Assembly: GCF_057098645.1 (NCBI RefSeq)
Contig: NZ_CM169472.1
Length of the DNA stretch: 64,000 nucleotides
Reading direction: 5' to 3' (one strand)
Positions 61,401-64,000 of this stretch are shown here, one piece after another (position 1 is the first letter of the stretch; each line of letters opens with the position of its first letter). Made by a program: the position numbers.

Positions 61401-64000
61401 TCCATGAGGAACGGAATGATGAATAATAAAGTCAGCTTCACTAACAGCAATAATCCAACCATCTCTTTGTCTGCAGTGATCTATTTCCCTCCAAAATTTG
61501 ATGAAACCCGTCAGCATCCGGCAATTGTGGTATCTCACCCAGGTGGGGGCGTTAAAGAACAAACGGCCGGAACTTATGCCGAAAAACTGGCGGAAAAGGG
61601 ATTTGTCACTATTGCTTATGACGCATCTTATCAAGGTGAAAGTGGCGGCGAGCCGCGTCAGTTAGAAAACCCATACATTCGTACTGAAGACATCAGTGCC
61701 GTGATTGATTACCTGACAACGCTTTCTTATGTCGACAATACCCGAATTGGTGCGATGGGAATTTGTGCCGGTGCAGGATATACAGCCAATGCTGCAATTC
61801 AGGATCGCCGCATCAAGGCCATCGGTACCGTTAGTGCGGTCAATATTGGTTCGATGTTCCGTAATGGTTGGGAAAACAATGTGAAATCTATTGATGCCCT
61901 GCCATACGTTGACGCGGGTTCAAACGCCCGAACCAGCGATATTAGCAGCGGAGAATATGCCATTATGCCACTGGCACCAATGAAGGAGTCCGATGCGCCG
62001 AACGAAGAACTGCGTCAGGCCTGGGAGTATTACCACACCCCTCGCGCGCAGTATCCAACAGCACCGGGTTACGCTACTTTGCGCAGCCTTAACCAGATTA
62101 TTACCTATGATGCTTACCATATGGCGGAAGTGTACCTGACTCAGCCGACGCAGATTGTGGCGGGCAGCCAGGCAGGGAGCAAATGGATGAGTGACGACCT
62201 GTACGATCGAGCATCAAGCCAGGATAAACGCTATCACATTGTTGAAGGCGCAAACCATATGGATCTTTATGACGGCAAAGCCTATGTGGCTGAAGCAATT
62301 TCAGTATTAGCTCCGTTCTTTGAGGAAACTCTGTAATGAAACATATTCAAATCCGCAATAGTGATATGGCCTGGCATATTGCTGCCAATATTCAGTTTCC
62401 ACCAAATTTTGATGAGTCAAAACAGTATCCGGCGATTATCAGCGTCCATCCTTTTGGCAGTTGTAAGGAGCAGACGTCTGGCAATATCTATGGCAAGGCA
62501 TTGGCTGAAAAAGGCTATGTCGTTCTCGCTTATGACGCCAGTTTCTAGGGAGAATCTGGTGGGGAGCCTCGTTGGATAGAAGATCCGACACAGCGCGTAG
62601 AGGATATTAGCCGTGTTATCGATTATGCAGTAACTCTGCCATATGTTGATGCTGAACGCATTGGCGTGCTGGGTGTGTGTGGGGGGGGTGGCTATGCCAT
62701 TAATGCCGCGCTGACAGAAAAACGAATTAAAGCTGTAGTGAGTATTACGGGTGTTAATATCGGGCGTCTTTTTCGGGAAGGTTTCAGCAATTACGATCCG
62801 ATTGGCGCATTGAATGCAATGGCGTCGCAACGAACCAAAGAGGCTCGTGGTGGAGAATTACAGATCAACGAATTACTTCCCGCCAGCCTGGATGCAGCAA
62901 AAGCCCATGGACTGACCGAACGCGATGTTTATGAAGCAACTGACTACTATAAAACACCACGCGGGCAACAACCGGGAGGTGCGACAAAAATGTTGTTCTC
63001 ACATGCACAGAAAACGCTGGCCTGGGATGCCTTCGCATTTACTGAAGTGTTACTGACTCAGCCGGTGATGGTAGTAGTTGGTGAAAAAGTCGGTGCCTTC
63101 GGTGCTTATCGTGATGGACTGGAATTCTATGGCCGGGCGATGGTTTCGCAGGATCGTCAGTTAGTTTCATTACCCGATTTCTCACATTATGAACTGTATG
63201 ACAAACCGGAAGCAGTTCAGGAGGCGCTGGAAAAAGTTATTCCTTTTTTCAACACCCATCTGTGATAAGTTTCATGAGAAATATTATGAAAAATGTACTC
63301 ATTCTTGGTGCTGGCGGTCAGATAGCCCGCCATGTGATTAATCAACTGGCAGATAAACAAACCATTAAACAAACTTTATTTGCTCGTCAGCCAGCAAAAA
63401 TACACAAACCCTATCCAACTAATAGCCAGATTATTATGGGGGATGTACTGAATCATGCAGCACTGAAGCAGGCCATGCAGGGACAGGATATTGTGTATGC
63501 CAACCTTACGGGGGAAGATTTAGATATTCAGGCAAATTCAGTGATCGCTGCGATGAAAGCCTGTGATGTTAAACGTCTGATCTTTGTTCTTTCCCTCGGC
63601 ATTTATGATGAAGTTCCAGGAAAATTTGGCGAATGGAATAATGCAGTTATTGGTGAGCCCCTAAAACCATTCCGCAGGGCTGCGGATGCAATTGAGGCTT
63701 CTGGACTGGAATATACAATTCTTCGCCCTGCCTGGCTGACGGATGAAGATATTATTGATTATGAGCTTACCTCACGCAAGGAACCATTCAAAGGTACGAT
63801 CGTATCACGTAAGAGTGTCGCAGCATTAATTACAGATATCATCGATAAACCTGAGAAACACATTGGTGAGAATATAGGCATCAATCAACCCGGGACTGAT
63901 GGCGATAAGCCATTCTTCATGTAAATCAATTATATAGCTACCATCGTACTGTACTATGTGCAGTACGATTTATTAAACTTATTAAGGTGAACTGATCAAT

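What the first reader, a model, noticed from the sequence alone, without database searches (positions are those of the whole stretch)
63286..63924. Intact NAD(P)-binding protein where K-12 has a pseudogene fragment
The last gene in the window encodes a 212-aa Rossmann-fold (NmrA/atypical SDR-like) protein with an intact GAGGQIARH glycine-rich loop. My recollection is that the corresponding K-12 locus (ymjC) is annotated as a fragment, so this may be the ancestral full-length form. It sits with the hydrolase paralogues under the divergent LysR regulator pgrR.
Basis: partly seen in the sequence, partly recalled or inferred. Interest (0 to 1): 0.25.

Follow-up and report, generated by a model that had tools for sequence, protein, structure and literature searches.

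The report
Intact SDR gene, truncated in K-12
The last gene in the window is a complete, conserved NAD(P)H-binding reductase gene of which E. coli K-12 keeps only the first 46 codons; this difference is real but already annotated, and the protein already has a crystal structure.

Summary
Window 63286-63924 (+) is a complete 212-aa ORF. It matches Pfam NAD_binding_10 end to end (E 6e-54) and is 210/212 identical to PDB 3QVO from Shigella flexneri. K-12 ymjC (60 aa) is its first 46 codons plus 14 unrelated codons, left by a ~0.68-kb deletion. K-12 ymjD is the stump of a second, ~0.86-kb deletion that removed a YcjY-like hydrolase gene.

In 5,426 complete E. coli genomes the locus has four states:
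- All three genes present: 1,277 genomes.
- Hydrolase paralogue deleted, reductase intact: about 1,600.
- K-12-type double deletion: about 2,340.
- No cassette, mppA next to mpaA: 174.

The block pgrR, ycjY, paralogue and reductase is a conserved four-gene cassette. It occurs in Serratia, another enterobacterial genome, alpha- and beta-proteobacteria, and partly in Bacteroidota, and is never next to murein-peptide genes there. In E. coli a 37-bp direct repeat flanks it.

The most likely function is an NADPH-dependent reductase of the biliverdin-IXβ reductase (BLVRB) type that works with the two hydrolases. The substrate is unknown. The finding is ordinary and already known, so interest is low.

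The parts
63286..63924 (+). Complete 212-aa NAD(P)H-binding atypical SDR gene, the full-length counterpart of K-12 ymjC
   Evidence: ORF. Pfam NAD_binding_10 E 5.9e-54 over the full profile. 210/212 identical to PDB 3QVO. AlphaFold model pLDDT 89, closest to 3QVO, a Veillonella SDR, BLVRB and ChuY. dN/dS 0.03-0.17.
63307..63333 (+). Glycine-rich dinucleotide-binding loop GAGGQIARH (residues 8-16)
   Evidence: Read directly. G8, A9, G11 and A14 are invariant in 40 homologues.
63286..63424 (+). The only part of the gene kept in K-12 (first 139 nt, 46 codons of ymjC)
   Evidence: blastn of window against K-12: 97.1% over 139 nt. Translations compared. About 2,340 of 5,426 genomes match only this part.
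63425..64000 (+). Sequence missing from K-12 (deletion D2). It runs on to about 106 nt beyond the window end (682 nt in O145 RM9872, 664 nt in strain 042).
   Evidence: The K-12 junction reads CCAACTAATA|AAATGCAAAC.
63943..63969 (+). 12-bp hairpin 19 nt after the stop codon, followed by TTTATTAAAC. It could be a terminator or an intercistronic hairpin, and K-12 has lost it.
   Evidence: RNA fold of 63925-63990: -17.2 kcal/mol, z = -3.1. The stem is kept through compensatory changes in the L089 and L006 cassettes. The terminator scan did not call it.
62336..63265 (+). Second YcjY-type alpha/beta hydrolase gene. It is a pseudogene here (TAG at 62546-62548, Q71*) and is otherwise collinear with the intact 310-aa O111:H8 allele.
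   Evidence: ORFs split into 70 aa plus 199 aa. Alignment to the O111, O145 and O157 alleles. RefSeq flags it as a pseudogene in O145 and O157 and as intact in O111.
62394..63257 (+). Sequence missing from K-12 and from strain 042 (deletion D1, about 0.86 kb). K-12 ymjD is the 21-codon stump. A further 12 nt (63278-63289) are also absent.
   Evidence: The junction is identical in K-12 and 042, with a gapless alignment across it.
61416..62336 (+). ycjY, first alpha/beta hydrolase of the operon (G-x-C-x-G nucleophile motif). Its stop overlaps the paralogue's start.
   Evidence: PDB 5XB6 'YcjY' E 1e-202.
61279..61415 (.). Divergent pgrR-ycjY control region with the palindrome ATCATTTAAATGAT and repeated TAATCA motifs
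   Evidence: Mean column identity 82% across the E. coli, Pseudocitrobacter, L089 and Serratia cassettes, with a long central stretch almost invariant, against 77-79% for the cassette as a whole. The genomic SELEX peak for PgrR lies in the ycjY/ycjZ spacer (PMC5934670).
60379..61278 (-). pgrR (ycjZ), the LysR-type regulator of the cassette
   Evidence: A LysR gene is syntenic with the hydrolases and SDR in 18 of the related loci and in L089-L092.
60100..60136 (+). Left copy of the ~37-bp direct repeat that flanks the cassette. The right copy lies about 107 nt beyond the window end, upstream of mpaA.
   Evidence: Cassette-free genomes have a single copy between mppA and mpaA.

Best explanation
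The gene encodes an intact, selectively maintained NAD(P)H-binding oxidoreductase. It is an atypical short-chain dehydrogenase/reductase of the NAD_binding_10 family with the fold of biliverdin-IXβ reductase (BLVRB).

Shown:
- It is the last gene of a four-gene cassette: pgrR divergent from ycjY, a ycjY paralogue and the SDR.
- K-12 and about 43% of complete E. coli genomes carry a derived state. One deletion removed the paralogue and left ymjD. A second removed codons 47-212 of the SDR plus the downstream hairpin and left ymjC.

Inferred:
- The enzyme binds NADPH. The glycine loop is intact and Arg34 at the end of strand 2 is invariant.
- It transfers a hydride directly to a small planar or electrophilic substrate such as a quinone, flavin, enone or lactone.
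- That substrate is chemically linked to the ester or lactone handled by the two cysteine-type, dienelactone-hydrolase-like enzymes upstream.
- Expression comes from the PgrR-controlled ycjY promoter.

The substrate is not known.
For: Complete ORF. Full-length Pfam match. 99% identity to the solved structure 3QVO. Fold neighbours are BLVRB at TM 0.78 and the anaerobilin reductase ChuY at TM 0.80. Forty-one columns are invariant, including G8, G11 and R34. dN/dS is 0.03-0.17. K-12 annotation and alignment. Survey of 5,426 genomes. Hydrolase-SDR linkage is seen in 29 of 80 loci from Proteobacteria and Bacteroidota, with a LysR gene in 18, and the identical four-gene layout occurs in L089-L092. 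Nucleotide collinearity runs exactly from the pgrR stop to the SDR stop. The operator region is conserved. Old Yellow Enzyme, adh_short, flavodoxin-like quinone reductase and metallo-beta-lactamase-fold hydrolase genes are recurrent neighbours. Gene spacing is 0 and 20 nt.
Against: No biochemical or expression data for this protein were found; searches for ymjC and 3QVO gave nothing functional. There is no YxxxK catalytic motif, and the Tyr that is the majority residue at position 130 in homologues is Phe here, so catalysis cannot be read from the sequence. The nonsense codon in the upstream paralogue could lower SDR expression by polarity in this strain; this was not tested. In Lactobacillaceae the homologues (about 50% identity) are not linked to these hydrolases, so the partnership is not universal.
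Confidence: 0.8

Rival explanations
1. The protein is a non-catalytic NmrA-like NAD(P) sensor that modulates a regulator such as PgrR, rather than an enzyme.
For: PDB 3QVO is deposited as 'NmrA family protein'. Pfam NmrA matches residues 2-100. There is no YxxxK motif.
Against: At 212 aa it lacks the C-terminal domain of NmrA proteins, and the match covers only profile positions 3-104 of 298. The nearest functionally characterised folds are reductases, BLVRB and ChuY. Neighbouring genes are enzymes.
Confidence: 0.08
2. The gene takes part in murein-peptide recycling, as its position between mppA and mpaA and the name of PgrR suggest.
For: In K-12 the listed PgrR regulon includes ycjY-ymjDC-mpaA and ycjG (PMC5934670). 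The gene lies between mppA and mpaA.
Against: None of 80 related loci has an mpaA, mppA or ycjG homologue within 5 kb. In L089-L092 the same cassette lies in unrelated contexts. In 174 E. coli genomes mppA and mpaA are adjacent without the cassette. The K-12 operon link to mpaA runs through deletion D2.
Confidence: 0.07
3. The ORF is intact by chance in this strain but is effectively a decaying gene on the same path as its pseudogenised neighbour and the K-12 fragment.
For: The locus is deletion-prone: about 43% of genomes have lost the gene and about 73% have lost the paralogue. The paralogue is independently inactivated in O145, O157 and this window. Truncated 162- and 171-aa protein clusters exist.
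Against: dN/dS within E. coli is 0.1-0.17 for the more divergent pairs, and all family-invariant residues are kept. 2,898 genomes keep at least 80% of the gene.
Confidence: 0.05

Closest known systems
PDB 3QVO, 'Rossmann-fold NAD(P)-binding family protein / NmrA family protein' from Shigella flexneri
   Same: The same protein: 210 of 212 residues identical over the full length, and the top structural match.
   Different: Two substitutions (G115V and K164N in 3QVO relative to the window). No function is attached to the structure and no paper citing it was found.
E. coli K-12 YmjC (b4525) and YmjD (b4673)
   Same: Same locus. YmjC residues 1-46 equal residues 1-46 of this protein. YmjD is residues 1-18 of the hydrolase paralogue (12th residue differs) plus 3 junction-derived codons.
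   Different: The K-12 forms are deletion remnants of 60 and 21 aa. YmjC ends after the second β-strand (model) and lacks the remaining 166 residues. K-12 also lacks the hairpin after the gene.
Veillonella parvula DSM 2008 SDR (PDB 3R6D, 4HNG, 4HNH, 4IPT)
   Same: Closest other solved relative: E 4e-19, 29% identity, TM 0.90, same length.
   Different: A structural-genomics target without a known substrate. Its genomic context was not examined.
Human biliverdin-IXβ reductase / flavin reductase BLVRB (PDB 1HDO) and E. coli ChuY anaerobilin reductase (PDB 5FFQ, 5GUY)
   Same: Same single-domain atypical-SDR fold of about 205 aa (TM 0.78-0.80). These are NADPH-dependent reductases of planar substrates.
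   Different: Only about 20% identity. BLVRB and ChuY active-site residues were not mapped here. The operon context differs: heme utilisation for ChuY, hydrolases here.

Membership tests
Pfam PF13460 NAD_binding_10 (NAD(P)H-binding) | Score above the curated gathering threshold over the whole domain | tested here: met
   183.2 bits against a cut-off of 27.2; profile positions 1-184 of 184, residues 8-189.
Atypical SDR (BLVRB-like subgroup) | N-terminal glycine-rich dinucleotide-binding motif on a Rossmann fold | tested here: met
   GAGGQIA at residues 8-14, with G8, A9, G11 and A14 invariant. The model has alternating strands and helices consistent with a Rossmann fold.
Atypical SDR (BLVRB-like subgroup) | Absence of the classical catalytic Tyr-x-x-x-Lys of classical and extended SDRs | tested here: met
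   No YxxxK in the sequence (read). The position that is Tyr in most homologues is Phe130 here and is not conserved.
Atypical SDR (BLVRB-like subgroup) | Fold similarity to BLVRB | tested here: met
   Foldseek probability 1.00, TM 0.78, to 1HDO; TM 0.80 to ChuY 5FFQ.
Atypical SDR (BLVRB-like subgroup) | NADPH binding and hydride transfer to a substrate | not testable with these tools
   Inferred only, from invariant R34 after strand 2 and the relatives' chemistry. No assay or ligand-bound structure was examined.
NmrA family proper (PF05368, about 300-aa regulators) | Match over the whole NmrA profile including the C-terminal domain | tested here: not met
   Only residues 2-100 match profile positions 3-104 of 298. 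The protein is 212 aa.
K-12-type ymjC truncation | Gene ends after nt 139 and joins DNA upstream of mpaA | tested here: not met
   The window carries the full 639-nt gene.
PgrR regulon / ycjY operon | Co-transcription with ycjY and control by PgrR | not testable with these tools
   Supported only by spacing (0 and 20 nt), conserved synteny, the conserved operator and K-12 SELEX/regulon tables (PMC5934670).

The most novel reading that the evidence does not exclude
pgrR, ycjY, the paralogue and the SDR form a horizontally mobile cassette for detoxifying or catabolising small molecules. The cassette landed between mppA and mpaA in E. coli, where a 37-bp repeat flanks it and an empty site survives in 174 genomes. 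The textbook K-12 picture of PgrR as a peptidoglycan-recycling regulator acting through a ycjY-ymjD-ymjC-mpaA operon would then be largely a by-product of the K-12-lineage deletion. That deletion removed the SDR's 3' end and its hairpin and brought the cassette transcript to within 81 nt of mpaA. In the roughly 53% of E. coli with the intact gene, mpaA would be uncoupled or less coupled from PgrR.
Probability: 0.35. Interest if true: 0.4.

Novelty: already known. Interest (0 to 1): 0.15.

Why it matters
The finding matters mainly as a caution about using K-12 as the reference. At this locus K-12 carries two deletion scars, so its annotated small ORFs (ymjC, ymjD) and its operon structure do not represent more than half of the species. 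The gene itself is a conserved enzyme of unknown substrate with a solved structure. That makes it a tractable target for functional assignment together with YcjY (also solved) and the paralogue. If the cassette reading is right, the assignment of PgrR and YcjY to peptidoglycan recycling should be re-examined in strains with the intact locus.

Tried and rejected
- **Literature.** The search for 'ymjD' returned only herbal-medicine acronyms. The search for '3QVO' returned one unrelated paper. The primary PgrR paper (PMID 23301696) and the nitrogen-starvation paper (PMID 27231238) are not held. The 'ymjC' papers give only pan-genome presence/absence and screen lists.
- **NCBIfam.** No family reached its cut-off for the SDR. 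YcjY matched the UilS lactonase model at only 89.6 bits against a cut-off of 400.
- **Promoter and terminator scan.** The counts were at or below the shuffled expectation. The scan did not call the post-gene hairpin or an mpaA promoter.
- **Base composition.** GC of 0.41-0.53 across the cassette is not distinguishable from the flanks, so it gives no evidence on horizontal transfer.
- **Illegitimate recombination with an empty-site donor.** I considered this because K-12's right repeat carries 'GG' like the empty site. I rejected it because O111 and 042, which have intact genes, carry the same 'GG' allele and the same downstream variant.
- **Species-representative scan.** It did not return E. 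coli itself, so it cannot show whether other Escherichia species lack the gene.
- **Greedy ORF maps.** In high-GC loci they were distorted by antisense ORFs. I relied on the BLAST hits instead.

Full report
**Observation.** The window carries an ORF from ATG 63286 to TAA 63922-63924 on the + strand, encoding 212 aa. It ends 76 nt before the window edge, so the worry about a frameshift beyond the edge does not apply. The motif GAGGQIARH is at residues 8-16. Pfam NAD_binding_10 matches its whole profile (1-184 of 184, 183 bits against a cut-off of 27.2). NmrA and Epimerase match the N-terminal Rossmann part only. An upstream GTG at 63262 would give 220 aa. The 212-aa start agrees with RefSeq WP_000800182.1 and with the PDB construct.

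**Comparison with K-12.** MG1655 annotates ymjC (b4525, 183 nt) and ymjD (b4673, 66 nt) between ycjY and mpaA.
- K-12 is collinear with the window up to 62393, which is 58 nt into the second hydrolase gene.
- It resumes at about 63258, lacks 12 nt (63278-63289), and matches the SDR gene for 139 nt (63286-63424, 97%).
- It then jumps to DNA that lies about 107 nt beyond the window end, just upstream of mpaA.
- YmjC is therefore residues 1-46 of this protein plus 14 codons of unrelated sequence. YmjD is residues 1-18 of the hydrolase paralogue (12th residue differs) plus 3 junction-derived codons.

The retained remnants show that the K-12 state is derived. There are two deletions: D1 of about 0.86 kb and D2 of 664-682 bp.

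**Survey of 5,426 complete E. coli genomes.**
- 2,898 genomes hold at least 80% of the gene, about 2,340 hold only nt 1-139, and 189 hold nothing.
- A 2.2-kb query separates the states. 1,277 genomes have ycjY, the paralogue and the SDR (O157:H7, O145, O111:H8, O121:H19). A class at 59% coverage has D1 only with an intact SDR (042, ATCC 25922, SF-166). A class at 29% coverage is K-12-type (K-12, DH10B, BL21 derivatives, O104:H4).
- The K-12 junction query covers at least 80% in 3,923 genomes, which fits the sum of the D1-only and K-12-type classes.
- D1 has the identical junction in 042 and K-12, with a gapless alignment across it.
- 174 genomes, including ST648, have mppA and mpaA adjacent with no cassette at all.

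The second hydrolase gene (62336-63265) is a pseudogene in this window. A C-to-T change at 62546 turns Q71 into TAG. The rest is collinear with the intact 310-aa O111:H8 allele. O145 RM9872 matches the window at all but one substitution and this indel over 6.7 kb. It carries an extra G near 62680, as does O157:H7 OK1. The paralogue has therefore been inactivated several times independently.

**The protein.**
- It is 210/212 identical to PDB 3QVO from Shigella flexneri. The next relatives are an uncharacterised Veillonella SDR (E 4e-19), then ChuY/ShuY and BLVRB (E about 1e-5).
- An AlphaFold model (pLDDT 89) matches 3QVO, the Veillonella protein (TM 0.90), ChuY (TM 0.80) and BLVRB (TM 0.78).
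- Forty homologues share 41 invariant columns. These include the glycine loop, R34 after strand 2, and the signature GKFGEWNN within LGIYDEVPGKFGEWNN.
- There is no YxxxK motif, so this is an atypical SDR.
- dN/dS is 0.03-0.05 against other enterobacterial copies. It is 0.10-0.17 within E. coli, apart from the near-identical window/O157 pair (3 substitutions, 0.58).
- Database names are all generic. No functional study was found.

**Context.** The species-representative scan returned 80 loci.
- In 29 of them a YcjY-type hydrolase lies beside the SDR. In 18 a LysR gene lies there too. None has mpaA, mppA or ycjG nearby.
- YcjY is 80-84% identical to proteins of Afipia, Hyphomicrobium and Mesorhizobium.
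- In L089-L091, contigs carrying an SDR that sources name from Klebsiella aerogenes and Salmonella enterica, and in Serratia (L092), the same four genes occur with the same spacing in unrelated surroundings. In L089-L091 an adh_short gene and an Old Yellow Enzyme gene follow.
- Nucleotide collinearity with the E. coli cassette (77-79%) runs from the pgrR stop to just past the SDR stop.
- The pgrR-ycjY spacer is better conserved than the genes and contains the palindrome ATCATTTAAATGAT.
- Other recurrent neighbours are OYE, a flavodoxin-like quinone reductase, a metallo-beta-lactamase-fold hydrolase and classical SDRs.

These results point to a redox and hydrolase module for a small electrophilic or lactone-like compound. 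They do not point to murein-peptide metabolism.

**How the cassette sits in E. coli.** Alignment of an empty-site genome to the occupied locus shows a 37-bp segment present once in the empty site. In cassette-bearing genomes it is present twice as a direct repeat. The left copy is at window 60100-60136 and the right copy lies just upstream of mpaA. The cassette of about 3.97 kb also carries a QueH-like fragment on its left arm. On its right arm it carries the start remnant of the adh_short gene seen in L089. Whether the empty site is ancestral or arose by recombination between the repeats could not be settled.

**Regulatory consequence (inferred).** A 12-bp hairpin (63943-63969; -17.2 kcal/mol for the 66-nt fold, z -3.1) follows the gene. 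It is kept through compensatory changes in other genera. D2 removes it and leaves the ymjC stop 81 nt from mpaA. The K-12 regulon table lists ycjY-ymjDC-mpaA as one PgrR-controlled operon (PMC5934670). PgrR is negatively autoregulated (PMC10505187). PgrR control of mpaA may therefore be strengthened or created by the deletion. This is a hypothesis. In L089 the same hairpin sits between two co-oriented genes, so it need not be a full terminator.

**Verdict.** The observation and interpretation are correct, but the feature is ordinary and already annotated. The gene is a conserved enzyme of unknown substrate with a solved structure. The K-12 fragment is a known annotation. What this work adds is the four-state map of the locus, the pseudogene status of the neighbouring paralogue, and the mobile-cassette reading.

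Noticed in passing
window 62336-63265 (stop at 62546-62548): The second YcjY-type hydrolase is inactivated here by a single nonsense codon (Q71*). O145 RM9872 and O157:H7 OK1 instead, or in addition, carry a +G frameshift near 62680. O111:H8 has the intact 310-aa gene.
   Followed up: yes
window 60100-60136, with the partner about 107 nt past the window end (L002 6823-6859): A ~37-bp direct repeat flanks the ~3.97-kb pgrR-ycjY-paralogue-SDR block. 174 of 5,426 E. coli genomes have a single copy with mppA and mpaA adjacent, an empty site.
   Followed up: yes
K-12 junction, L001 around record position 1390724; window-equivalent about 64106: The right end of the K-12 deletion D2 falls within about 1-5 nt of the start of the right flanking repeat, that is, at the cassette boundary. 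Simple AATA microhomology predicts one more A than K-12 has. This is unexplained.
   Followed up: partly
window about 60207-60281 (L002 2921-2995, minus strand): RefSeq annotates a 25-aa internal fragment of an epoxyqueuosine reductase QueH-like gene between mppA and pgrR. It lies inside the cassette's left arm and is probably debris from the donor context.
   Followed up: no
window 63943-64002: The hairpin after the SDR stop is conserved with compensatory substitutions in the L089 and Pseudocitrobacter cassettes. The following AAGGTGAACTG aligns to the ribosome-binding site and start of an adh_short gene that E. coli lacks. The E. coli cassette therefore looks like a truncated version of a longer island (LysR, two hydrolases, SDR, adh_short, OYE).
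   Followed up: partly
L004 (E. coli 042) 2509-2582: In strains with only deletion D1, the ymjD-like remnant ORF is 23 codons and ends in TCATGA, overlapping the SDR start codon. This arrangement suggests translational coupling.
   Followed up: no
window 61279-61415: The pgrR-ycjY spacer is more conserved across genera than the coding sequence. It contains the perfect palindrome ATCATTTAAATGAT and repeated TAATCA motifs, a likely PgrR operator.
   Followed up: partly
window 61416-62336 and 62336-63265: Both hydrolases have G-x-C-x-G (GICAG, GVCGG) where alpha/beta hydrolases usually have G-x-S-x-G. This suggests a cysteine nucleophile as in dienelactone hydrolases.
   Followed up: no
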